A stretch of 23,027 nt of DNA from Chiloscyllium plagiosum (GCF_004010195.1 NC_057718.1:64485637-64508663), one strand, 5' to 3'. Numbered from the stretch's first letter, positions 1,213-21,334 are shown. Notes: a model not told the origin generated them from the letters alone. Numbers and translations are program-made.

Positions 1213-1736
1213 CTGTAAAGCAATAAAAGAAAAGAAATAACATGGAACAAAGCTGCCTGCTTGTTTTCTTTTCCTTTAGGGTTTTCTCACAGCTACATTG
1301 CAATGGCTTAAACTAAGCATCTCTGCCAATTGTGGATAGTTTGTAAGATTTTCAACCTCTGAAGACAGAGGTTAGATAAGACTACTATTCAATGATGATT
1401 TAAATTGTGTAATTGAGTTTTTGAATCAACCTGGCATTTGGAGATAACCACTAACCTAAGCAAACAAAAGAAAAACAGTCATGCTAAACTGTCATAGCCG
1501 AAAATAACTAAACAGGAGGTTAAAAATACCAAATTGAATATGAGAATTAAACCAAGATCAGTAGATGAAATCAAGCTAAATATTCTAGATAGTCATTCAC
1601 AGTGCACATTCAAACCAGGATATCAAAAGCCACATTAGAAAGGATAATATGGGAATAAAAGATAATCTGTTTGGGACCAAGTGACCTTAAGTTAAAGGTA
1701 AAGCTGTGTATTAAGTTCATTTGCCTTAGTTTCAGC

Positions 1737-1908
1737 TAAAAATCACACAACACCAGGTTATAGTCCAACAGGTTTATCTGGAAACACTAACTTTCAGAGC
1801 GCTGCTGACGAAGGAGCATCAACAGATAAACCTGTTGGACTGTAACCTAGTGTTGTGTGATTTTTAACTTTGTCCACCCGAGTCGAACATCAGCTCCTCC
1901 ACATCATG
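1737..1908 (+). mobile_element. Penelope-derived inverted-repeat element
   Basis: 44-bp inverted arms 1737-1780 and 1823-1866 (2 mismatches), 3' extension to ~1908, CTGACGA hammerhead-core remnant at 1805-1811, degenerate flanking repeat ttagtttcag/ttagcttcaa. Confidence 0.75.
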
Positions 1909-2212: not shown

Positions 2213-2636
2213 GTTGCATCAGTATCAGAAATGTTAAGCATGCATTGTCCAATATTAGTATTCCTCACCTTGATGCGAAAAAGTCTGAAATTAGACCAGG
2301 TATACAAATCAAAACAGCAGTTTTTTTGTTTTCAAATTAGCTATTCAAAATAAATGGTTTATCAATGTTCGGTAATGATGTTAATTCGTAAGAAATTGAA
2401 TTGGCACTGCTAAAGTTCTAATAAGGCATAAATGTCATAAACCACAGTTACCACCATTTCATTTGTTGTTCTATCCAATTTCAACACATTTGATTTGTTT
2501 GAAATATTATCCTTCACAGATTTCAGTTCTAAGGTAGGAATATTGTGCATTCATGTTTTCAGGACATAATGAAATTGGTTAAAAACCGAAAGTTCCAAAT
2601 TCATTTATCTGTCTTGTTGCTTGTTCTTTCTTTTAG

Positions 2637-2687
2637 GAAGTAGAGTTGTTGAATCAGAAACTGCAGTTTTTGAATCAAAGAATGCAA
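2637..2687 (+). CDS. Probable internal coding exon (phase 0/0), coiled-coil peptide EVELLNQKLQFLNQRMQ
   Basis: Acceptor gtcttgttgcttgttctttcttttag|, consensus donor |gtaagt, 51 nt open frame with heptad-spaced L/M, non-repetitive flanks. Gene not recognised. Confidence 0.7.
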
Positions 2688-2954
2688 GTAAGTGATTCAC
2701 CCACAGGCAATATGTTGAAAATATTAGCAACAAGTGTCTTCTGAGGAAGCAATTGCAACCACCGAAATGGACATAGGAATTGCAATACACGAATAAACCA
2801 TGCCCACTCGTTGTATTACAGGCAGTACATAAAATTGGTACTGCCTCTTCTTTAAAATGATTGTTGCATGTTCTTCATTAGGTAAAGTATGGTGAGTAGT
2901 TAACACAAATTGAAATCAACCATACACCTCTGAAAAGAGGAGGCATGTATTGTG

Positions 2955-3099: not shown

Positions 3100-3780
3100 G
3101 AGTGAGATGGGCTGTCGAGAGATTTGTGACAGAATCGGATGAGAAACCCAGTGAGGCCGATCTTAATGTCAGGAGCATCTTGCTCCATCCTTTATGCTGT
3201 GGACTTGTGGTGGGCAGCAGCAAGTTGACGATTAAGGAGGCTTATAGCTTGTGAAAAGCCTTATTAACGGCCCAACTTGCCTCATTAATATTCAGCTTCC
3301 TATCATATCAAAAACTCCAAACAAGCAGGATGTTTAGAAATCTTGACATGGAAATCAGAGCCTGGTGACTCCAGCTGACCACTGGCTGTGACCAGCCTTA
3401 ATGTTGCTGAGGACCAAACAGCATCTTGGGCTACAGTCCTTAAGCACTGGCTACGTGAACCCCTTGATGACAGATATTGGCATTTACCAATGCATCAAAT
3501 CTGTCATGGCATCTCTCTGACACACTGGATGCTCAGAAAGCACAGAGTGATATTGCAGGTCACACTGGCAACTAGCATTGAAAAGCTGCTGCAGGCACAT
3601 TTAATGCACAGGGATATGGACCCAGCGTGTGGATTGGACCAGGCTCAATCTCAGCTCCGCTCACTTGCTGTGCTTATGCCCCCTCACTTAACACATTTAA
3701 CAGCATCCTTACACCATCCGTCTGTTAGCAATAGTCACAAAACCCTGCCTTGCTGCTCGGCAGTCCACGGTTGAATGGCA
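3100..3780 (+). mobile_element. Possible decayed PIF/Harbinger-type DNA transposon fragment
   Basis: Loose resemblance to the 11610-12030 segment and to remembered shark Harbinger internal sequence; no diagnostic motif seen. Confidence 0.25.
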
Positions 3781-4327: not shown

Positions 4328-4643
4328 ATGGATCTCCTGCAGTCAGGGGGTCTTTACAGGGAATCAGTAGTAGCTCCTAATTCCAGTCCAGGGAATTGGC
4401 TGTGGTCCAGTCAGCATCTTATCGATTGGGCTTGCATACCTATGCTATTCGGGGAGTGGGTCACAATCAATCCTGTGGTTTCATAGTGGATAGTCTGGGG
4501 GTGAGGTAGGACCAACATGGTTGGGGAGCTATACAACCACCAGTCTGGGATCTGTGCACTGGTTGATCAGGGCTACAGGTTGGATTAGATCAATTGAGGG
4601 GTCAGTTTGTCAGATCTGTCCACAGAAGTTAAGAGCAAAGGTC

Positions 4644-4677
4644 GGGGGTGGGGGGGGGGGGGGGAGGGGGGGGGAGG
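4644..4677 (+). repeat. Poly-G tract (G-quadruplex-capable)
   Basis: G5-T-G15-A-G9-A-G2 read directly. Confidence 0.9.
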
Positions 4678-4949
4678 TTTAGAGGACCACTAATGCTGGA
4701 AGATGACTTGGGATCCTATTTTTCAGGATTGGGGGCTGCAAGCTAGGGCAAGACGGGATGATGATTGAGATAGGGGGAAATAGTACCTACAAAGAGGAAG
4801 TTTTGTTAGGGGACAATGCGGGAGAGGCGTTCATCCAGTCATGGTCAAGAGAACCTTGGCTTCTAGTGGGATGATCTGCTAGGAACTTGGCGGGAGGATG
4901 GTGGAGGTGCAATGGTTTAAGGCTCATGTAGTTGTTTTGGGTAGGGACT

Positions 4950-5310
4950 TGCGGAAATGCAAAGCCTCTGGGATCTGAATGTTGGGGCCTCACCAGTATG
5001 TAGATATGGAGGTTAAACACCACTGGCCTTGTTCTCCAACAAATCAGGAGTACTGCTGGGCTTGTGACTTTCTGTAGCAAGAATGTGCTGTCTTCTCTCA
5101 GGATGACAACATTCCGCTCTAACTCTTACTACCCTGCCAATGCCAGGATGGCTGATTATAGTTAGTTGTCTCAGTTTGCTGAGGCATAGGCTGAGACAGT
5201 GCAGGGTGAAGCTGTTCCTAGGCCCAGAGTTTCACAAGGACATCTGACTAGGTCACCTTGCAGTTAACAGCCATCCACCATTCATGGTGTGGTCCCTGAG
5301 GAAGCACCTT
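4950..5310 (-). mobile_element. Possible decayed Harbinger transposase C-terminal fragment
   Basis: Minus-strand nucleotide resemblance to HDSFIL..SQVP and SGGALQYSP..V regions of HARBI1-type transposases; frames broken. Confidence 0.3.
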
Positions 5311-5424
5311 GTAAGAGCACTCAGATAAACAAAGGTACATGGACGACAGGCAGTAAGGGAATGAACATTGCTGATTGCATTATTTTTGTGCTTATCATAT
5401 CATCAGTAAACTTGAGACAACTAT

Positions 5425-5957: not shown

Positions 5958-6450
5958 CAAAACAAGGACAACATGTGTTAAACAAAGTCAACAGGGTGGG
6001 CAGCATCTGTGGAGAGAGAAACAAGGTTAACTTTGCAATTCCAATATTACTGTTCTTTGGAATTGAATAGGGCTAGAAAGGTAATGGTTTTTGTGCTGCT
6101 ATAAGGGATAGAGGGGAAGAATGATGAGTAAATGGAACAGGTGAGGTCAATACCTCACAGCAAAAGCCAAAGGGAGTGCTAATAACAGTAGAGATGATAC
6201 ATTGATACAAAAGAGGAGTTAATGGAATGTATAAATATCAGAGAACAGGTCAGTTATGCTGAGAGCAAATCATGCAAACAAGTGGTGGTGAAGGAGGTGG
6301 GTAGGGAAGCTGGTTTTGTGAGGGTAATCAAGATGTATGATGGTGACAGTAGTCTGAAGCTGTTGAACTCAATATTGAATCCTGAGGCTGTAAAATGCTT
6401 GAATGGAAAATGAGGTGCTCTTCCTCAAGGTTACGTTGAGCTCAGCGGAA
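5958..6450 (-). mobile_element. Penelope-like element 3' part (ORF C-terminus plus terminal repeat)
   Basis: Minus strand ~6350-6450 encodes QRNLEEEHLIFHSSILQPQ / GFNIEFNSFR-like sequence (GIY-YIG-adjacent C-terminus, cf. QRKLEEQHLIFRLGTLQP.GLNIEF); followed by the tctctccacagatgctgcc repeat, linking the short arms to a Penelope ORF. Confidence 0.75.
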
Positions 6451-6556
6451 TGGTTTTCATTCAACTCATAAGAAATCAAAACCTTGGAACTTTACCTCCA
6501 TTTGAACCCTGCCTTCTAATGTACCTGTGAGTAGTGACATTAATGTGTTTTGACAG

Positions 6557-6770
6557 GAAGAGTAGAGTCAAGCCACCTTAGGATCAGCCAGATCAAGACT
6601 GATAGCACGCATCAAGTTAACAAGATGCCATGGTAGATAAACCAGCAATTTTACCAGTTTTTGTCCACATTTAGCTAAGTCCAAATTGGGAAAGCAGCAT
6701 TTTACAGATATTCCTCGATTGACCATTTTATATTCATTAATGTTAATAAATTTGATTAGTCTGAAAGTGG
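6557..6770 (+). CDS. Candidate terminal exon: EE-stop (6557-6565) if joined directly to 2637-2687, or RVESSHLRISQIKTDSTHQVNKMPW-stop (to 6636) if phase 1; then 3'UTR
   Basis: Acceptor taatgtgttttgacag|, AATAAA at 6745-6750, T/GT-rich stretch at 6781-6802, non-repetitive sequence. The end coordinate is the approximate cleavage site. Confidence 0.4.
6745..6750 (+). promoter_or_regulatory. Candidate polyadenylation signal
   Basis: AATAAA with downstream U/GU-rich element after the candidate stop codons. Confidence 0.4.
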
Positions 6771-7900: not shown

Positions 7901-8085
7901 ACAGCAAAGAGCTCCAGCTCCTGAATGTGCTGTTTGTGGCTGGCTATGTTAAGTGTATGTGTAGGTGAATAGGCAGAATCCTTGCAGACGTCCTGACTTG
8001 TTACTCTGTGCCAGTTTGCTGTGCCCTCACGGTGAAATGGATAAATGCCTTTCTTCTGCCTTCACTATAGAGAATACAAAAAGCA

Positions 8086-8298
8086 GAGTCTAGATTAGAG
8101 TGGTGCTGGAAAAGCACAGCAGGTCAGGCAGCATCTAAGGAGCAGGAAAATCAATATTTTCGAGGAATCCTGATGAAGGGCTTTTGCCCGAAACGTTGAT
8201 TTTCCTGCTCCTTGGATGCTGCCTGACCTGCTGTGCTTTTCCAGCACCACTCTAATCTAGACTCTAATTTCCAACATCTGCAGTACTCACTTTTGCCC
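8086..8298 (+). mobile_element. Penelope-derived inverted-repeat element with 13-bp TSD
   Basis: 70-bp inverted arms 8085-8154 and 8196-8265 (1 mismatch), 33-nt 3' extension, exact duplication aatacaaaaagca at 8073-8085 and 8299-8311. Confidence 0.9.
8164..8205 (+). ncRNA. Minimal type-I hammerhead-ribozyme-like motif
   Basis: aatc-CTGATGA-A-GGGC-TTTT-GCCC-GAAAC-GTT-gatt: core boxes, 4-bp stem II, AATC/GATT stem I, palindromic ACGT helix III. Confidence 0.65.
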
Positions 8299-8555: not shown

Positions 8556-9155
8556 TGTGATGATATTTGCCTTTAAGAGGGATTTGTTCTGTTCGGTTTC
8601 TCTAGAAGAGAGTTATTGTAAACTTGTACCAAGATGTCTGCTCCAAGGAAAGGAAAGTAAATAGCTTTTTTCAAAAATTAGACCAAAGAAACAGGAGCAA
8701 GTGGAATCAGGTTCAAACAGACCCAGGGTTTTAGTTTTGCTTTCAGTTGTTGAATTTGGGGTTTTGGAACTGAAACTGCTTGTTACAGTTTTCTCTCTCT
8801 CTCTCTTTCTCTTCCTCTCTTTGTGTGTGCTGCTAGATACACACGTTGAGCTTTTTTATCCAGGACTGGAAGAGATCACAAGTGAGGGAATTCTATTTTG
8901 CTGAATTTGCTTTTGCCAGGGGTGTTTATGGGATGCTGCTATATTCAAATAGTTGATCAGTAGTAGTTAAATAATATTATTTTAAGTATTTCAATATAGT
9001 TAAAGCTACACCAATTCTTCTTTCTTTCTTTGTAGTTTAACTGTAGTGTAAGAGTAAAGTGTGTTTTGCTTAAAGCTTACTAGTTAGACCAATCATTAGG
9101 GTCCAGGCTATCTCCTGGGAACATTTTGACCAGGTCTGGTCTGGTCTATAATACA
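8556..9155 (+). mobile_element. Solo LTR (~600 bp) inserted in old CR1
   Basis: Starts TGTGATG, ends ggtctataataca, internal CT microsatellite and AGTAAA signal variant; CR1 sequence resumes on both sides. Confidence 0.6.
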
Positions 9156-9426
9156 AAACATGCACTGTGGAAAACATACTATACTTGAGTTTCCAGAAGG
9201 CATTTGATATTGTGCTTTGATAATGGCCTACCCATGTTCCTACTTTCTGTTTTTTCATTGCTCTTTGGAAATGCATTGGAGGCGGTTCAGAGGGATTTAC
9301 TAACTTAATACTTGGAATGAGTGGGGTCTTGTGAGGATAAACTGAATTGGCTGGGCTTGTTTCTACCAGAGCTTAGAAGAACGAGGAGTAATTTGACTTG
9401 ATTGAATTGTATAAGATCCTGAATGG

Positions 9427-10101
9427 TCATAGAGTCATAGAAGTGTACAGCACGGAAATAGTTGGCCCAACTCTTCCATGCCAACCCCATATCCTAACTA
9501 ATCTAGTCCCATTTGCCTGCATTTGGCCCAATTCCCCCAAACCCTTCCTATTCCTATACCAATGCAGATGTCTTTTAAATGTTGTGATTGTCCCAGCCTC
9601 CACCACTCCCTCTGGCAGCTCATTCCATACACGCACCACCCTCTGCGTGAAAAAGTTGCCCCAGGTCTCTCTTAAATTTTTCCCCTCTCTCTATGCCCTC
9701 TAGTTCTGGACTCCCCCAGCCCAGGGAAAAGACCTTGGGGATTATTTACCCTATCCATGCCCCTCATAATTTTATAAACTTCTATAAGGTTACCCCTCAG
9801 CCTCTGATGCTCTAGGGAAAACAGCCCCAGCCTATTCAGCCTCTTCCTATAGCTCAAATCCTCCAACCCTGGCAATATCCTTGTAAATCTTTTCTTAATC
9901 CTTTCAAGTTTCACAACATCCTTCCAATAGGAGGGAGATGCCAGAATACTGGAAGTTGGCTAACGTGGTGCCACTATTTAAGAAAGGTGGTAAGGAAAAG
10001 CCAGGGAACCATAGACTGGTGAGCCTGATATCGGTGGTGGGTAAGTTGTTGGAAGGAATTCTAAGGGACAAGATTTACATGTAACTAGAAAGGCAAGGAC
10101 T
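9427..10101 (-). mobile_element. Younger CR1 (HER1-like) with inverted 5' segment
   Basis: 9427-9938 minus strand: KLERIKKRFTRILPGL...TRGH, WNELP and tail. 9939-10101 plus strand: WKLANVVPLFKKGGKEKPGNHRLVSLISVVGKLLEGILRDKI (RT N-terminus). Confidence 0.9.
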
Positions 10102-10671
10102 CTTGATAAAGTGAGTGTGAAGAGGATATTTTCTCTTGTGGGTCAATCCGGAACTAGAGGGGATGGTTTTAAAATTAGGTGTTACTCTTTTGGGACAGAG
10201 ATGTGAAGAATGGTTTTTCCTCTCAGAGGGTTTTAAGAATTTTGAACTGTTTGTCTCAGAGAGCAATGGAGAGCGGGCCTACTGAATATTATTAAAACCT
10301 TGCTGGATAGATTCTTGTTTGTTAGGAGACAAGGATTATTGGGAGCAGATGGGAATGTGGAATTTGAAACATTCAAATTGGATCAGGCTCGATTGGCCAA
10401 ATGGTCAATTTCTGTTCACATTTGAGCCAACATATCAAACCAGATGGTGATTGCTAGAAGACAAGGGCTATTCTTTGACCATGTGATTCCTAACTCTGAT
10501 GTCCAACCCAACCACTCCTGGCCCGTGGGCAGATAATGAATCTACTGCATATATTCGTATAAAGGTCAAATTGAAGACAGTTTTTTAAAACTGAAATTAG
10601 GGAGTCGACTAAAACACGAGGTATTGTTTTCGAGTGGGTGAAACTCATGCTTGGTATGAGTCACAAAATGG

Positions 10672-10770: not shown

Positions 10771-11609
10771 AGTCAAAAAATGGACAAACAAGAGCCAGAT
10801 CTCCAAATGAAATAATAAACAACAAAAGGAGAAAGAATTATGGCCATTATTGAATAGTTATCTACAAAATAACTGTCTCCATTCTGCCTCTGATGGTAGA
10901 ATGGTACGGTAATCTCCCGTACCTGTTGGGGATACTTTCCAAGTCCTACCGTGGAAGCATTCCTAAAGCTGTTCTGTGTATAAGTGGTATAATTTATACC
11001 ATATTGAACTTTTAGAACTAACTTGAGATGTAAGGTAATCCTAGGAATTTGGTAGTTGAGGCAGATATTGTTTGGCAGAAATACTTGCAATTAAATCAGT
11101 CATATGATGGTATGATGCTCTCAAATCTCTTGTACTTTTTGTATTGTTTGTGTTTCTTGGATATTAGCAAAGCTAAACAAAGACAAATGGCCCCAGTTTG
11201 TACAAAGTGCTAAAACAATTATAATACTATCATACTATATAGGTCAATATCTACAGGGTTGAATTTGGGACACATGGTGAAGAAAACAGTTTGTACTCAA
11301 GTCTTGATTGTCATTTGAATTTCATCTTCGTAAGTAAGTAGTAAGTAAGTTATTAAGTACTAGCGAGAGAAAGACAATCACAAACGTGATGAGGTTCTGA
11401 AAGAAGGATTCAGGGAGCTAGGAGAGAAGTTAAAGAGGAGGACCTCAAAGGTAGTGATCTCGGGATTACTAACAGTACCACGTGCTAGCCAGTGTAGAAA
11501 TGAAAAAATAGGCAGGATGGCTTGAGAGATGGTGTAGGAGGGAGTAAGAACGAATTGGCATTAACCTGTAAAAGCTTTTCTTCCTCTTACTTGCAGTTAA
11601 TTTCCTTCT

Positions 11610-12030
11610 CTTGTGCAGACATGAAAATCACTCAGTGGAAGTCTGTCCAGAAGCTACTAAAGACTCTCGACTCCACCTCCACTTCTAAGGAGAAAGCAGT
11701 TTCGAGTCTTTCATCTGCACCTTCCATCAGCTCACAGACTTTCACTTCATTCAGTTCTCTATCTAGATTAGAGTCAGGAAAACATTCCAGTGAGCATACC
11801 ACTGACATATCACTGCAGTTGGTTGAGGAAGAAATGCCCAAAGCTGCTGGCACTCAGAGGACTGTCAGAATCAGGCACTGGCTCAGCCCCAGACAGGAGA
11901 TGATCCCATGGTGTTGGACGTTAATGACTTTATCAAAATGCATGGAGAGGCACAGGAACAGCAGGCAGATGTATCAGAGACGGTCCACAACTGGATCAAA
12001 AGATGGAGGAGTTCTCCAACATTTTCAGTA
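11610..12030 (+). mobile_element. Possible decayed Harbinger accessory (Myb/SANT) gene exon
   Basis: Acceptor ttccttctcttgtgcag| then an S/T-rich open stretch (APSISSQTFTS...ESGKHSSEH...AAGTQRT) resembling remembered shark Harbinger internal sequence. Confidence 0.35.
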
Positions 12031-12064
12031 CAGTGCTCGCTCTCTGTGTGTTTGGCTGCCTCCA

Positions 12065-12435
12065 TGAACAGACTGTCTGCATCTGTGGAGAGAGAAAAAC
12101 AGAGTTAATGTTTCAAGTTCAATCTGACTCTTCTTCAGAACTGACAGGGCTGGAAAGTGAAAAGGAGGAGTGAGTGGAATAGATGGTGAGGGTTCCCACA
12201 GCAAAAGACAAAGGGACAAGGAACAATAGGTATGTTTTATGTTTGCTTATCTCCTCTACCTCCACTATTAACACTTTTTTTGTGTTTTGCTGTGGGCACC
12301 CCCATCATCTATTCCACTTGTTCCTCCTCCCCTTTGCCAACGCACAAAAAACATAATTTTCAAGCCCCCTTCAGTTCTGATCAGACTCAAAATGTTTCTC
12401 TCTCCACGGATGCTGCCAGACTTGCTGAGTTTTTG
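12065..12435. mobile_element. Decayed Penelope-derived long inverted element
   Basis: Nested complementary blocks gcatctgtggagagagaaa/tttctctctccacggatgc, tcagaactga/tcagttctga, ggaggagtgagtggaatagatggtg/catcatctattccacttgttcctcc, cccacagcaaaa/ttttgctgtggg. Confidence 0.75.
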
Positions 12436-12734
12436 AATGCAGGGACCTGTGCTCTACCACTCATTACCAGAGGCAAGGTGAGTGGAGGATGAAGGATCTC
12501 AATCTCACTCCATGTGCCCCTTTCTCTCAGATAGACATGGTGGTGCCATTAGGCAGCCAGAGGCAGAAGGAGAAGGCACACACAGGATCAGCCCTTCCAC
12601 CTCCATCTTGTCTGTGATGCCAAAACCGGCATAATTCCAAGCTGAGGAGGGTGAGCCTGATTCTGGGTGTGATACTGTCAACAGGCCTGGACCCTCTAGC
12701 TCTAAATATGGTCAAGTCTTCCAAGCCAATAGGC

Positions 12735-12845
12735 CCAGAACTGAAGAAGTCATACCAGATTCAAAACTTTACTTTTACCTGTCTCTCCATAAGTGAAGCC
12801 AGACTCGCTCGGTTTCTCTGGCATTCTTTGTGTTTATTTTAGGCC
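12735..12845 (+). mobile_element. Degenerate Penelope-derived arm
   Basis: ctgaagaagtcataccagattcaaaac...tctctccata...gccagactcgctcggtttctctggcattctttgtgtttatttt. Confidence 0.55.
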
Positions 12846-13132
12846 CAAATACAGACCAGGGCTATCTCTATTCCGGCTTCTGGCATTGCAACTGCATTTA
12901 GACATTAAGAGAGACAAGGAATGATAAATCAACCTGAGGGCAGATAGGTGGCATATATTATAAATTACAAATCAATGTAAAGTTTCTTACATGTTTGTAA
13001 ATATATGCATCTGCATTCTTAAAATGTCTCCTGTCGTGCTTTTGTCACTGCCACTGTTACTAATTAAGTTGCATCGGCAAGATGAGCAGCTCTTCAGGTA
13101 CTCTAAGGATGAAAGAATTTGTAATGGCCAAG

Positions 13133-13811
13133 TGTTGTCTACATGGACTTTAGCAAGGACTTCGAGAAAGTTCCGCATGGTCACCTTTATTAGTCAGAGT
13201 ATTGAGTACAGGAGTTGGGAGGTCATGTTGCAGTTGTATAGGACATTGGTTAGGCATGGTATATTGCATGGAATTGTGGTCTCCTTCCTATTAGAAAGAT
13301 GTTGTGAAACTTTAAAGGGTTCAGAAAAGATTTACAAGGATGTTGCCAGGGTTGGAGGATTTGAGCTACAGAGAGAGATTGAATAGGCTGAGCTGTTTTC
13401 CCCGGAGCATCGGAGACTGAGGGGTGACCTTATAGAGGTTTCTAAAATCATGAGGGGCATGGATAGGATAAATAGACAAAGTCTCTTCCCTGGGGTGGGG
13501 GAATCCAGAACTAGAGGGCATAGGTTTAGGGTGAGAGAGGAAAGACATAAAAGAGACCTAAGGGGCTACCTTTTCACGCAGTGGGTGGCATGTGCATTGA
13601 ATGAGCTGCCAGGGAAGTAGTGGAGGCTAATACGATTGCAACACTTAAAAGGCATCTGGATGTGTATATGAATAGGAAGGGTTTGGAGGGATATGGGCTG
13701 GGTACAGGCAGGTGGGACTAGACTGGGTTGGGATATCTGGTCGGCATGGACAAGTTGGATGGAAGGGTCTGTTTCTGTGCTGTACATCTCTATGACTCTA
13801 TGACTCTATGA
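13133..13811 (+). mobile_element. CR1 (HER1-like) 3' part with internal deletion and (CTCTATGA)3 tail
   Basis: VVYMDFSKDFEKVPHG jumps directly to FISQSIEYRSWEVMLQLYRTLVR; C-terminal TRGH and 3'UTR; tail at 13788-13811. Confidence 0.93.
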
Positions 13812-14089
13812 GGGAGGGGTTCAGATTTGTTGGACATTGGGACCGGTTCTGGGGAAGGTGGGACTATTACAAAATGGACGGTCTACATCTGAACCAGACC
13901 GGAACCAATGTCCTTGGGGGAGTTTTTGCTACTGCTGTTGGGGAGGTTTTAAACTAATGTGGCAGGGGACTGGGAACCCGAAGAGAAAACAAGTAGGAGC
14001 GACGCAGAGACTGAAGACTGTAAGAATCATGAAGATAGCATTAATAAAAGGAAGAGTAGGCAGAGAGCAGATGAGCACAAAAGAACTGG

Positions 14090-15830
14090 AGGCTTGAAAT
14101 GCATCTACTTTAATGCAAAGAGTATAGTATGTAAGGCAGATGAACTTATGGCTTGGATTGGTGCCTGGGATTATGACGTTATTACAATCACAGAGACTTG
14201 GTTGAAGGAAGGGCATGATGATTGGCAACTGAATGTTCCAGGATATAGATGTTTCAGACAGGGCAGGGAGGGAAGTAAAAGGGAGGGGTGGAGTTGCATT
14301 GCTGGTCAGGGACGATATCACGGCTGTGCGAAAGGAGCACACTATGATGGTCTTGGGTAGTGAGGCATTATGGGTGGAGCTGAGAAATAAGAAGGATGCA
14401 CTTACATTGTTGGGGCTGTATTACAGGCCTCCCAACAGTGAGCGTGAGGTAGAAGAACAAATAGGTAAACAGATTATGAATAGATGTAGAGGCAACAGGG
14501 TAGTGGTGATGGGAGATTTTAATTTTCCCAACATTGACTGGGATACACTTAGCGTCAGAGATCTGGATGGGGTAGAATTTGTAAGAAGTGTCCAGGAGAG
14601 TTTTCGAGAACAGTATGTCAATAGTCCGACGAGGGAAGGGGCCATATTAGACCTGGTATTGGGGAATGAGCCAGGACAGGTGGTAGAAGTTGCGGTGGGG
14701 GATTTCTTTAGGAACAGTGACCACAATTCTGTAAGTTTTAGAATACTCGTAGATAAAGAAGAGAGTGATCCTAAGGGAAGAGTACTAAACTGGGCCAAGG
14801 CCAGTTATATCAAAATTAGGCAGGAGCTCAGAAATGTGGATTGGACACAGCTATTTGAAGGGAAGTCCACATTTGAGATGGGGTAGGCTTTCAAAGATAG
14901 TGCAGGATAAGCATGTCCCGTTGAAGGCAAAGGATAGGAAGGGCAAGATTCGTGAACCGTGGATGACAGGAGAAATTGTACGACTAGCCAAGAGGAAAAG
15001 GGAAGCGTACATAAGGTCTAGGTATCTAAGAACAGAACGAGCCCTGGAGGAATATTGGAAGAGTAGGACAAGTCTTAAACGAGGAATCAAGTGGGCTAAA
15101 AGGGGTCATGAAATAGCTTTAGCAAGCAGAATTAAGGAAAATCACAAAGCATTTTATTCTTATATAAGAAGCAAGCAGGTAACTAGAGAAAGGATTGGTC
15201 CATTAAAGGATAATGAAGGACGGCTGTGTGTCAAACCTGAGCGAATGGCTGAGATTCTGAATGATTACTTTGCATCAGTGCTCACTGAGGAGAGGGACAT
15301 GATGAATCCTGAGATTAGAGATAGAAGTTTGATTAGTCTGAATCATGTTGACATAAATAGGGAAGGTGTGTTGGGTAGGCTAGAGGTTATTAAGATGGAC
15401 AAATCTCCAGGACCAGATGGGATCTATCCCAGATTGCTGAGGGAGGCAAGAGATGAAATAGCTGGGGCCCTGACAGATAGCTTTGTCAGGGTGTTGCCTG
15501 GTATGGAAGGTGCTAGCTATGAAGAGAGGTTGAGTAGGTTAGGTTTATTTTCATTAGAAAAAAGGAGATTGAGGGGGGACCTGATTGAGGTTTACAAAAT
15601 CATGAAGGGTATAGACAGGGTGGATAGAGACAATCTTTTTCCCCAGGGTGAAGGATTCAATAATGAGAGGTCACGCTTTCAAGGTGAGAGGTGGAAAGTT
15701 TAAGGGGGATACATCCGGCAAGTACTTCACACAGAGGGTGGTGGGTGTTTGGAACGCATTGCCAGCAGAGGTGGTAGAGGCAGGTAGATTCATTTAAGAT
15801 GGGTCTGGACAGATGCATGAGTAGGTGGGG
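14090..15830 (+). pseudogene. CR1 ORF2 pseudogene (APE endonuclease, linker, C-terminus)
   Basis: LKCIYFNAKS, ITETWL, GGGVALLV, YYRPPN, MGDFNFPNIDW, ILDLV, SDHN, KSPGPDGIYP across three frames; TAG at 14884-14886; RT core missing at ~15485. Confidence 0.93.
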
Positions 15831-16429
15831 AGCAGAGGGATATAGATGCTTAGGAGTTGACCGACAGGTTTAGACAGTACATTTGGATCTGCTCAGGCCG
15901 AAGGGCCTGTTCCTGGGCTGTAAATTTTCTTTGTTCTTTGTTCTTTGTAAGTCAATATCCATATGGTCGTTTAAATTGGGCAGTTTACCTTCCAACCAGC
16001 CCCCGGTCCTGGGTTCTGGAATGTTCCCTGTAATATGTTTGGGCCACGGTAAAACGCGGGAAACTGAAACTGCGGAAACCGATTCTGCGGATTACAGTAA
16101 TTCTGAAAACCTGGAGTGGAGCGTGGCAGCTGACGGATTGGAAGATCCAAGCAGAGTGGTACAGCCAGCAGAATGGAAAGCCGGAGCAGAGTGCAACGGG
16201 CAGGCACACTGACTCATAAATGTTGATCTGTAACTGTGAAGAACTAGGGTAGGCTTACACATGAAATATATCGAAAATACAAGATTTTTTGGCCAAAGTA
16301 AGGGGTCACCTTACACACGAGATCAACCTATACATGAGTATATATGGTAATTTGCCACAGGAAAATCTGTAAATCAGTGCTCTGCAACAAAACTGAAATG
16401 TGACCTTGTCAACCAGAGGCTGACAATAG

Positions 16430-17670: not shown

Positions 17671-17841
17671 GAGAAATTACCGTCACCATTTAGGGCGTCA
17701 ACCTCTCCTCAGTTCACGGTATTTTTCTGACAGGTTAAAACCTGAAGCATTAACCTGGTTAATGCTTCAGGTTTTAACCTGTCAGAAAAATACCGTGAAC
17801 TGAGGAGAGGTTGACGCCCTAAATGGTGACGGTAATTTCTC
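17671..17841. repeat. Perfect palindrome: 85-bp arms with a 1-nt spacer
   Basis: 17671-17755 is the exact reverse complement of 17757-17841, checked base by base; centre T at 17756. Confidence 0.97.
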
Positions 17842-18724: not shown

Positions 18725-19654
18725 TGGCTTGTGTATTTATTGGGTGTTTGATATAATTTGACAGTGAATGCTGCAAGCTTCCTGGCTCAGTATCTCAGTT
18801 CCACTGTCTCATTAACACCTATTCAATATAATCAATCAAGGGAACTGGTTTGCATATGTGTTTGTGTGGCCTGATCCAATTCCCAGCACACTATTCAGTT
18901 GGCCAGTTTTTCCAGCACGGTGTTCAGTTGGCCAATGCTGTTAGTGTCCCAAAAGTGGGGAGAGAATATATATGTTTCAGGTACTTTCCTTAAGACCTGT
19001 GGAATGGGGACAACAGGCAATTAGACAGGAAAGAAATCTGGCAATTGGGGAGCCTTGGGTGTTGTGAAGAGACACAAAACCAGGAGAAGGAGGAAAGCCA
19101 GTACATGCTTTGGAACGAGTGAACACAGGGAGAGTAGGGAGAGGAGAGACTGGAGATAAGCACTTTGCTGAGGGGAAGATTTATAAACAAATACATCATA
19201 AAGTCTTTTTTTTGGGGGGGGTTGTGGTTCTCTGCAATCACATTGTTGGGAATTGAAGAATGTCCATGATCAGCAGCAGAAGGAACATTCTAAATTGAAA
19301 GAATAAGTTGCATCGAAGACTAAGGAACAAATGTTACAATTTGAAAACAATGCTTGCAATCAGCTTTCTGTAATTTTATAAAAATATAACTGTTATATCA
19401 ATGAAAAGGCTTATGTTTGTAATGTCCTATTTTGTTATTTCTTCTCAAGGTATTTTACTGTTGTAAGATATAGAGAGATTTTTATCTCTCCCTCTTTCTC
19501 TCTAGATTGCAGATTCCACAGTTTGGAAAGGCATGTTTAAACGTCCTCCACTATGGTGAATCAGTGACTAGATGCAGACACCTAGCAATCTTGTATTTAA
19601 CTGAAACTTCCAGAATAACAGCTGAAGCCCTATGTAAAAGATTTACTTATGATA

Positions 19655-19784
19655 TTAGATTATTGCCTCAGTAGGAGATTCTTTATTGCTTTCAAAAAAT
19701 ACTTGGATGCCATTCTCAAGAGAAGTTGCTTGCCTCTTCATAGGTAAAGATGAACTTTGAAATGTTGTTTTGTACATATTTATG
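19655..19784 (-). CDS. Probable terminal coding exon (phase 2): INMYKTTFQSSSLPMKRQATSLENGIQVFFESNKESPTEAII-stop
   Basis: Minus-strand acceptor tcattttatctccactttgttgtttatattgttcag|, open frame to TAA, AT-rich non-repetitive downstream region resembling a 3'UTR. Gene not recognised. Confidence 0.45.
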
Positions 19785-20142: not shown

Positions 20143-21305
20143 ATCACAGAGTCATAGAGTTATACAGAATGGAAACAGCCCCTTTGATCCAACTCATCCA
20201 TGTTGACCAGATATCCTATTTGTCAGGATTTGGCCTATATCCCTCTAAACCATTCCTATTCGTGTATCCATCCAGATGCCATTTAAATGTCGTAATTGTA
20301 CCAGCCTCCACCTCTTCCTCTGGCAGCTCAATCCATACACACACGACTAACTGCCCTTTAGATCCTTTTTAAATCTTTCCCCTCTCGCCTTAAAACTATG
20401 CTGTCTAGTTTTGGACTCCCCTACGCTGGGAAAAATATCTTGGCTACTCACCCTGTCCCCATGATTTTATAAACCTTTATAAAGTCACCCCTCAGCCTCC
20501 AGTGTTCTAGGGAAAATAGCTCCAGCTTTTTCAGTCTCTCGCTAAAGTTCAAACTCTCCAACCCTCACAACATCCTTGTAAATGTTTCTGAACCCTTTCA
20601 AGTTTCACAATATCTTTCCTACAGAGGGAGACCAGAATTGAATGCCTTATTCTAAAGTGGCCTAACCAATGTCCTATACAGCTGCAACATGACCTCCCAA
20701 CCCCTATGCTCATACAGTGACCAATGAAGGCAAGCATGCCAAATGCCTTCTTCATCACGCTGTCTGCTTGCAATTCCATTTTCATGGAACAATGCCACTT
20801 GCACCCCTAGTTCTTTCATCAGCAACACTCCCCAGGACCCTATCTATAAGTGTGTAAGTCCTGCCCTGGTTTGCTCTACCAAAATGCAGCACCTCACATT
20901 TATCTAAATTAAACTCCATATGCTATTCCTCAGCCTATTGGCCCATCTGATCAAAGTCCCATTGTACTCACAGTTAACCTCCTTTACTGTCTACTACACC
21001 ATCAATTTTGGTGTTATCTCCAAACTTACTAATTATATTCTTATTTTCATATCCAAATCATTTATATAAATGACAAAAAGCAGCAGACCCAGCACCCATC
21101 ATTGCAACGCACCGCTGGTCACAAGCCTCTAGTCTGAAAATCAGCCCTCCAATGACCACCTTCTGTCTCCTACTTTCAAGCCATTTTTTTTGTCCAAATG
21201 GCCAGTCTACCCTCCAGAACCTTGTCGAACAACTTGCTAAAGTTCATATAGACAACGTCCACTGCCTTACCTTCATCAACTGCCTTTGTCATCTCTTCAA
21301 AAAAC
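20143..21305 (-). mobile_element. CR1 (HER1-like) LINE, RT to 3' end, with deletions
   Basis: Tail at left; KKAFGMLAFIG, KDIVKLERVQK, VYMNFSK.FDK remnants colinear on the minus strand. Confidence 0.92.
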
Positions 21306-21334
21306 CAACTTTCCCACTCTCACCACTGCCATTG

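What the first reader, a model, noticed from the sequence alone, without database searches (positions are those of the whole stretch)
11538..13816. Candidate CR1-mediated 5' transduction: ~1.6 kb of old genomic DNA carried in front of a CR1 tail
Seen: the host CR1 ORF1 breaks at WCRRE (11544) and resumes at GFRF (13817); gagggag is duplicated at 11538-11544 and 13810-13816; the insert ends exactly in a CR1 (CTCTATGA)n tail, but its first 1588 bp (11545-13132) are not CR1 and hold heavily decayed repeats plus an unspliced acceptor. Inference: the cargo looks older than the host CR1 it sits in, so it was probably copied from another locus on a read-through RNA ending in a defective CR1 3' end and mobilised in trans. 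Transduction is well known for L1 and SVA; I do not know of it being well documented for CR1.
Basis: partly seen in the sequence, partly recalled or inferred. Interest (0 to 1): 0.72.

Follow-up and report, generated by a model that had tools for sequence, protein, structure and literature searches.

The report
Genomic DNA carried by shark CR1
A 1.6-kb piece of old, single-copy shark DNA sits in front of the tail of a CR1 jumping gene inside another CR1 copy; it was probably carried there by CR1's copying machinery, but the source copy is missing in this species and a related shark has the same piece next to different DNA.

Summary
A 2,265-bp block splits a host CR1 ORF1, is flanked by an exact 7-bp duplication, and ends in three perfect CR1 tail repeats; the host reads in frame without it. 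Public contigs bridge the left junction in another sample of this species (A) and in a sister species (B), so it is no assembly error. Best reading (0.42): an old cargo+CR1 block was retro-copied on a read-through RNA in the A/B ancestor, C keeps the source arrangement, and A/B lost the source. Rivals: an older template-switch capture with a later deletion in C (0.30), or a DNA-level move (0.18). It works like SVA/L1 5' transduction; eight literature searches showed no CR1 case. It is one non-genic event with an unsettled mechanism.

The parts
10907..11385 (+). left part of a non-autonomous DNA-transposon-like repeat (Tc1/mariner, Tigger-like by recalled resemblance) into which the host CR1 inserted
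   Evidence: up to 17 diverged contigs per site in one run, several running to 11383-11385; end is an inverted repeat of 16035-16104, score 27 against at most 24 in 500 shuffles, TA on both sides
11388..11544 (+). host CR1, left half of the ORF1 esterase region
   Evidence: only PDB hit 4c1b_A 69-106, E 1.4; CR1 paralogue contigs lie on 11388-11544
11538..11544 (+). left copy of the 7-bp target duplication
11545..11560 (+). 16 nt not matched by the species C contig; possible 5' filler or clipped alignment end
   Evidence: X14 record 14 is laid from 11561; no source found in the window, best other match 12 of 16
11561..12068 (+). cargo part 1: decayed coding-like repeat with an unspliced acceptor-like tract (AG 11595-11596); resembles the Myb/SANT-type second gene of Harbinger elements (recalled, not confirmed by Pfam)
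   Evidence: one hit, a whale-shark predicted protein, 38%, E 6e-5; no Pfam family for it
12069..12434 (.). old palindromic repeat nested in the cargo (high-copy family; Penelope-like by recall)
   Evidence: arm alignment score 100 against at most 42 in 300 shuffles; 74-85% to other window copies; hundreds of loose ends at 12393 and 12432
12435..13132 (+). cargo part 2: decayed sequence, a short repeat remnant at about 12736-12843, and an AT-rich stretch seen as one contig per run
13133..13787 (+). guest CR1: about 49 nt of RT (13133-13181), a skip of about 172 codons, then the 3' end from 13184; 3' hairpin decayed at 13757-13769
   Evidence: tblastn with P0002: residues 597-614 then about 785-950; family loose ends at 13184; folds
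13788..13811 (+). guest tail, three perfect 8-nt units; last 2 nt overlap the duplication
13810..13816 (+). right copy of the 7-bp target duplication
13817..15948 (+). host CR1, rest: end of ORF1, ORF2 endonuclease and linker, skip of about 340 codons near 15481, 3' end with intact hairpin and (TTCTTTG)n tail; another subfamily than the guest (38% apart at the 3' end)
   Evidence: 4c1b_A 130-161; Pfam PF03372 and PF14529 above cut-off; tblastn; alignment and fold
15949..16097 (+). right part of the DNA-transposon-like repeat (inferred continuation of 10907-11385)

Best explanation
At another locus an old CR1 3' piece (the guest) already sat behind old repeat-laden DNA. A read-through, unspliced RNA crossing both ended in the CR1 tail. 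An active CR1 of the guest's family nicked the host CR1, primed on the tail (2-nt match to the target), copied 2.25 kb and joined the 5' end with about 16 extra bases, leaving a 5-7-bp duplication. This happened after species C split off and before A and B split; C keeps the source arrangement, and the source was later lost in the A/B line. Shown: nesting, duplication, tail, junctions in A and B, other upstream neighbour in C, single copy in contigs. Inferred: the RNA, the trans-acting CR1, C as outgroup and source, the loss of the donor.
For: Insert ends exactly at the tail with a short duplication; CR1/L2 duplications peak at 3-5 bp and about half of zebrafish ZfL2-2 inserts carry extra 5' bases (PMC4245944, passages). 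In C the cargo-guest junction is present (contig to 13162) while record 14 (1,211 nt) matches only 11561-12112 and runs 660 nt further left on other DNA; record coordinates run in the record's own direction, as records 5 and 21 of the same table show. A young high-copy insertion in C would be expected to break that contig (inference). C is further from A (75 of 1,627 differences) than B is (29 of 1,000). The guest (40 of 475 private differences, 8.4%) is no younger than its host (22-23 differences in 157 nt to two paralogues, about 7% per copy), while its tail (24 of 24) and duplication (7 of 7) are unmutated, about 5 times likelier at 2% age than at 7-8%.
Against: No second cargo copy in X1, X15 or X5: one contig per run at 11660 and 12847-12874; X15 has exactly one contig over 12917-13080; two copies 3-5% apart shared a 31-mer in 4,000 of 4,000 simulations and would have broken the 617-nt contig. 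A copy mechanism therefore needs a separate loss of the donor on a short branch. The guest's hairpin does not form in the fold although CR1 is thought to need it (PMC8665684, PMC5729268, passages). The 660 nt in C were not shown and may be window DNA upstream of 10785, i.e. a deletion in C; C shows none of the window's letter at 10 listed sites of the left flank (B lacks it at 8), on a list biased towards such sites. No RNA evidence.
Confidence: 0.42

Rival explanations
1. Older one-step capture: a fresh guest CR1 inserted into the host soon after the host arrived; its reverse transcriptase skipped 0.5 kb, then jumped to an unrelated RNA or DNA and copied the cargo. The donor has since been lost or has diverged; C later lost the DNA left of 11561 by a deletion.
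For: Jumps look routine here: the host (1.0-kb skip), the guest (0.5-kb skip) and the copy at 9426-10105 (inversion with loss) are discontinuous, 3 of the 4 copies with over 500 nt of ORF2 match. Guest and host are of similar age. Needs no trans-use of a decayed hairpin. A donor 15% apart need not break contigs (59% of simulations). Template switching by CR1 RT is proposed in PMC5729268 and PMC6740152 (passages).
Against: Needs both a lost donor and a deletion of 600 nt or more in C ending within 16 bp of the junction. Paralogues down to about 81% were laid elsewhere in the stretch, yet none on the unique cargo parts. Tail and duplication are unmutated.
Confidence: 0.3
2. DNA-level move: the segment cargo+guest was cut from its old place and captured at a staggered break in the host CR1 in the A/B ancestor (insertional translocation), with no RNA step.
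For: Explains in one event why each species shows one copy and why C has another neighbour; needs no working hairpin; the acceptor-like tract is unspliced.
Against: The break would have to fall within about 2 nt of the tail's end, by my rough estimate a chance well under 1 in 100 for a random break; a 5-7-bp duplication with a 2-nt tail/target match is the usual CR1/L2 signature (PMC4245944).
Confidence: 0.18
3. The insert was originally longer and old; C keeps the long form and the A/B ancestor lost 660 nt or more just inside the left end; or the block built up by several nested insertions.
For: 16 nt at the left end are not matched in C; one extra short contig of depth 5.4 covers 11620 in X14 and is unexplained.
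Against: Again needs a breakpoint within 16 bp of the junction, on a shorter branch, plus a lost donor; the cargo's repeats are far more decayed (74-85% to window copies) than the host, so they are not younger insertions.
Confidence: 0.08
4. Assembly error, or resident DNA around which a CR1 was split.
For: The right junction was not tested with outside data.
Against: Left junction bridged in another study's sample and in species B; the host lies between the two inverted ends of one DNA-transposon-like repeat, so what is inside it came from elsewhere.
Confidence: 0.02

Closest known systems
SVA 5' transduction by L1 proteins in trans (PMC3287187, passages read)
   Same: non-autonomous 3' part mobilised in trans, upstream genomic sequence carried along, short target duplication
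   Different: L1 is a relaxed, poly(A)-binding system while CR1/L2 are stringent; here no donor is seen in the same species, the cargo is unspliced, and there is one copy, not a subfamily
CR1-tailed SINEs and template-switch chimeras (TguSINE1/PittSINE, PMC5729268; SINE/LINE pairs incl. shark HE1/HER1, PMC3747384; passages read)
   Same: foreign sequence in front of a CR1 3' end moved by CR1 reverse transcriptase
   Different: heads there are short Pol III RNAs that found multi-copy families; here the head is 1.6 kb of decayed genomic DNA seen once
5' extra nucleotides of ZfL2 inserts (PMC4245944, PMC4760211; passages read)
   Same: non-LINE bases at the 5' junction, short duplication, 1-2-nt microhomology
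   Different: those are a few bases mostly copied from the flanks; that fits the 16-nt piece in size, not the 1.57-kb cargo
Short internally deleted CR1-group elements (SIDEs, PMC6740152; passages read)
   Same: internally deleted CR1 derivative without its own RT
   Different: SIDEs are amplified families; no amplification of this cargo+CR1 unit was seen

Membership tests
CR1-group LINE (host and guest) | ORF1 esterase and ORF2 with apurinic-type endonuclease and RT | tested here: met
   the ORF1 hits are weak singly (E 1.4, 0.034) but are the only hits and are collinear; RT core deleted in both copies
CR1-group LINE (host and guest) | 3' hairpin followed by a short-repeat tail | tested here: met
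   host hairpin folds; guest has the 8-nt tail and aligns with its family, but its hairpin is decayed
CR1-group LINE (host and guest) | placement in the CR1 clade rather than L2 by an RT tree | not tested
   the clade name rests on the 3' structure and on recall
5' transduction (SVA/L1 type) | insert ends in the element's own tail and is flanked by a target duplication | tested here: met
5' transduction (SVA/L1 type) | extra 5' sequence is genomic DNA that is not part of the element | tested here: met
5' transduction (SVA/L1 type) | source locus with the same cargo-element junction in the same genome | tested here: not met
   not seen in contigs of 2 runs of A and 1 of B at 80% likeness; contigs cannot prove absence and no whole genome was held
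5' transduction (SVA/L1 type) | cargo-element junction older than the insertion | tested here: inconclusive
   C has the junction (30 nt into the guest) and another upstream neighbour, but that may be a deletion in C
5' transduction (SVA/L1 type) | read-through transcript from an upstream promoter | not tested
   the run search was for DNA; none of its 23 rows was on record as RNA
template-switch chimera | both junctions arise together and the donor lacks the LINE piece | tested here: inconclusive
   C has one junction without the other; no donor to inspect
non-autonomous CR1-derived family (SINE or SIDE) | many copies of the same head-plus-tail unit | tested here: not met
   one contig per place over the unique cargo in 4 of 4 runs
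Harbinger/PIF element (cargo part 1) | Myb/SANT domain gene, transposase, terminal inverted repeats, 3-bp duplication | tested here: inconclusive
   only a 38% hit to an unnamed whale-shark protein without a Pfam family; the Harbinger label is recalled

The most novel reading that the evidence does not exclude
CR1 activity moved rather than copied a 2.3-kb genomic segment: the segment left its old site, where species C still has it, and entered a new site with the hallmarks of target-primed reverse transcription, so a stringent LINE can relocate single-copy DNA that lies upstream of a dead, RT-less copy without raising its copy number.
Probability: 0.1. Interest if true: 0.78.

Novelty: new variant of a known kind. 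Interest (0 to 1): 0.42.

Why it matters
CR1 is held to copy only RNAs that end in its own 3' structure, which is the stated reason why CR1-rich genomes have few retrocopies (PMC5470649, passage). If any read-through RNA that ends in an old CR1 tail can be copied, then in sharks and rays, where CR1-group elements cover 22-34% of the genome (PMC13343379, passage), a large share of the genome lies upstream of a usable handle and could be shuffled this way. This locus has a dated, three-species pattern that one assembly comparison can settle. As it stands it is a single event in non-coding DNA with no known effect.

Tried and rejected
No whole genome is held, so the BLAST for a donor could not be run; public contigs were used instead. 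Rfam: 0 matches in the window. Pfam on 11 frames: only the endonuclease passed its cut-off. Protein word searches with the cargo frame and with the right ORF1 half found nothing; the Atlas gave only scores under 0.85. An exact 25-nt cargo pattern had 0 matches in JGI metagenomes. Contig depth as a copy number: cargo against flank-family contigs gave 1.12 (X1), 1.44 (X15), 1.37 (X5), 0.90 (X14); the tool says depth is no copy number, so I do not use it either way, but the higher values in X15 and X5 are noted. My first idea that GTAAGT is the host's target duplication was dropped when paralogue contigs ran on to 11385. My starting idea that the cargo is resident DNA was dropped because the host lies inside one DNA-transposon-like repeat. 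No source for the 16 nt was found near the junctions. PMC12016303 gave nothing on templated capture. X5 record 26 was left out of the A-B distance because it lies in the flank repeat.

Full report
1. The observation. The 7-mer at 11538-11544 recurs at 13810-13816 and the match stops at 7. Its first two bases on the right are also the end of the last tail unit, so the duplication is 5-7 bp with a 2-nt tail/target match. Without the insert the host frame is open across the site. The two halves each hit only PDB chain 4c1b_A, a LINE ORF1 protein, at residues 69-106 and 130-161 (E 1.4 and 0.034, weak singly, collinear together). The tail is three perfect 8-nt units at 13788-13811.

2. Anatomy. Paralogue contigs show that 10.9-11.39 kb is itself a repeat that runs to 11385, and CR1 paralogues begin at 11388. 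Its left end is an inverted repeat of 16035-16104 (score 27; 0 of 500 shuffles reached it) with TA outside both ends. So the order is: DNA-transposon-like repeat, host CR1 inside it, block inside the host. The host has ORF1, an endonuclease above Pfam cut-off, a skip of about 340 codons near 15481 and its own tail. The guest is another subfamily (175 of 462 differences at the 3' end): 49 nt of RT, a skip of about 172 codons that removes the catalytic motif, then the 3' end. The cargo holds a coding-like remnant whose only hit among 1.84 billion representatives is a whale-shark predicted protein (38%, E 6e-5), an acceptor-like tract, a palindromic repeat (arm score 100 against at most 42 in 300 shuffles) and a second remnant; its repeats match other window copies at about 74-85% over the longer hits. 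The names Harbinger, Penelope and Tigger are recalled resemblances, not tool results.

3. Outside data. No genome is held. The run search listed 23 runs, 18 holding part of 10780-13130, of organisms A (best share 0.76), B (0.20-0.28) and C (0.20-0.21). I laid 4 of them on 10785-13235 at 80% likeness. Left junction: bridged in X15 (A, another study than the best holder; 617 nt, 1 difference) and X5 (B; 168 nt, 4 differences). Cargo-guest junction: bridged in X1, X15 and X5; in X14 (C) a contig runs 30 nt into the guest. Differences from the window: B 29 of 1,000, C 75 of 1,627, so C is probably the outgroup (inference from distance only).

4. No donor in A or B. At the listed unique sites each run shows one contig: 11660 and 12847-12874 in all four; X15 has a flat 15.6 over 12917-13080, equal to its single contig. 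Paralogues down to about 81% were laid on the flank, so the method sees diverged copies. Two copies 3% or 5% apart shared a 31-mer within 546 nt in 4,000 of 4,000 simulations, 8% apart in 98%, 15% apart in 41%; a shared 31-mer with different upstream flanks should break a contig (my inference on how such assemblers work), and X15's does not break. Against this: contigs show presence, not absence; X1 and X15 both show two letters at 12668 and 12724, the second being the B/C letter; X5 has extra short contigs in 12949-13077; X14 has a second short contig at 11620. I read these as alleles or short paralogue matches, unproven.

5. Species C. Record 14 of X14 is 1,211 nt; its positions 1-551 lie on 12112-11561 (13 differences). 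Records 5 and 21, the same paralogue on opposite strands, show that positions count in the record's own direction, so the other 660 nt extend left of 11561. No second piece of this record is listed, though a piece of that length would be among the longest. The letters were not printed. So C has cargo plus guest, with another neighbour from 16 bp inside the insert's left end. A young, high-copy insertion would probably have broken the contig, which leaves a source locus, a deletion in C reaching beyond 10785, or a longer ancestral insert.

6. Ages. The guest has 40 private differences in 475 columns against two window paralogues and 19 in 213 against three; the host's left piece differs from two paralogues at 22-23 of 157, about 7% per copy. 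These are crude, but the guest is not younger than the copy it interrupts. Its tail and the duplication are unmutated: expected 0.57-0.70 and 0.72-0.81 at 1.5-2.3% age, 0.12-0.18 and 0.27-0.35 at 7-8.5%. The guest's hairpin does not fold, whereas the host's does; two other aged copies of the guest's family have also lost it and one keeps a looser stem.

7. Mechanism. The tail-exact end and short duplication point to target-primed reverse transcription (about 0.75 over the two RNA readings). Between them, C's pattern and the fresh-looking tail favour a recent copy of an old cargo+CR1 unit on a read-through RNA (0.42); the cost is a lost donor on a short branch and a decayed hairpin. An older template-switch capture (0.30) fits the frequent skips in this window's CR1 copies (3 of 4 long copies) but needs a lost donor and a deletion in C ending by chance at the junction. 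A DNA-level move (0.18) explains single copy and C at once but not the tail-exact end. These weights are my judgement from rough rates, not computed posteriors.

8. What is known. 5' and 3' transductions are described for SVA under L1 (PMC3287187, passages). CR1 and L2 are described as stringent, needing their 3' end (PMC4245944, PMC3747384, PMC5470649, passages), with a hairpin proposed as the recognition site (PMC8665684, PMC5729268). CR1-tailed chimeras by template switch and internally deleted CR1 derivatives are known; 5' extras of ZfL2 are short and mostly from the flanks. Eight searches (listings and abstract starts) showed no report of CR1 5' transduction, and the word stem does not occur in two CR1 surveys. 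The library lacks most subscription papers and cannot search the prime sign, so this is weak evidence of novelty. The locus works like a 5' transduction but fails the test of a donor in the same genome, so I do not file it as a member.

9. Earlier notes of this scan: none near this place or by sequence. One note in the same genome describes unspliced intron RNA ending in a SINE tail; notes from other genomes describe a 7SK-CR1 chimera and a Harbinger family that favours CR1 tails. They are leads, not checked here.

10. Verdict. Real, well-formed and shared by two species; mechanism open between three readings, one assembly comparison away from being settled. New variant of a known kind; interest 0.42.

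Noticed in passing
window 9426-10105: CR1 copy with a 5' inversion: ORF2 residues 819-950 on the minus strand abut residues 502-561 on the plus strand, about 0.77 kb lost; it interrupts an older CR1 (about 9150-10420). Looks like twin priming, which I recall mainly from L1.
   Followed up: partly
window 13181/13184, 15481, 9937: Three of four long CR1 copies in the window have internal skips or inversions that remove the RT core; the copy at 20144-21310 is nearly continuous.
   Followed up: partly
window 17671-17841: Near-perfect 171-bp palindrome (99.4%), much younger-looking than the other palindromes; a recent fold-back duplication or an assembly artefact.
   Followed up: no
window 1734-1869, 8085-8265, 12069-12434, about 5990-6190: Several palindromic repeats made of inverted copies of high-copy short elements.
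   Followed up: partly
window 12637-13210: Two sequence types about 1.7% apart in species A; the second shares letters with B and C, and both A samples show both letters at 12668 and 12724. Old alleles or a hidden partial copy.
   Followed up: partly
window about 11605-11630, run X14: A second short contig (depth 5.4) covers 11620 in species C only; it could be a paralogue or a junction contig.
   Followed up: no
P0002: A 966-residue protein filed under a bacterium is 79% identical to the host's endonuclease region and is a near-whole CR1-type ORF2; probably animal DNA in a bacterial assembly.
   Followed up: no
window 2625-2830, 6555-6625, 19505-19690: Short exon-like stretches with splice-like borders; not assigned to a gene.
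   Followed up: no
window 3290-3780 and 4330-5340: Further decayed coding-like repeats that by eye resemble the cargo's first part; no DNA-level match to the cargo at E below 1.
   Followed up: partly
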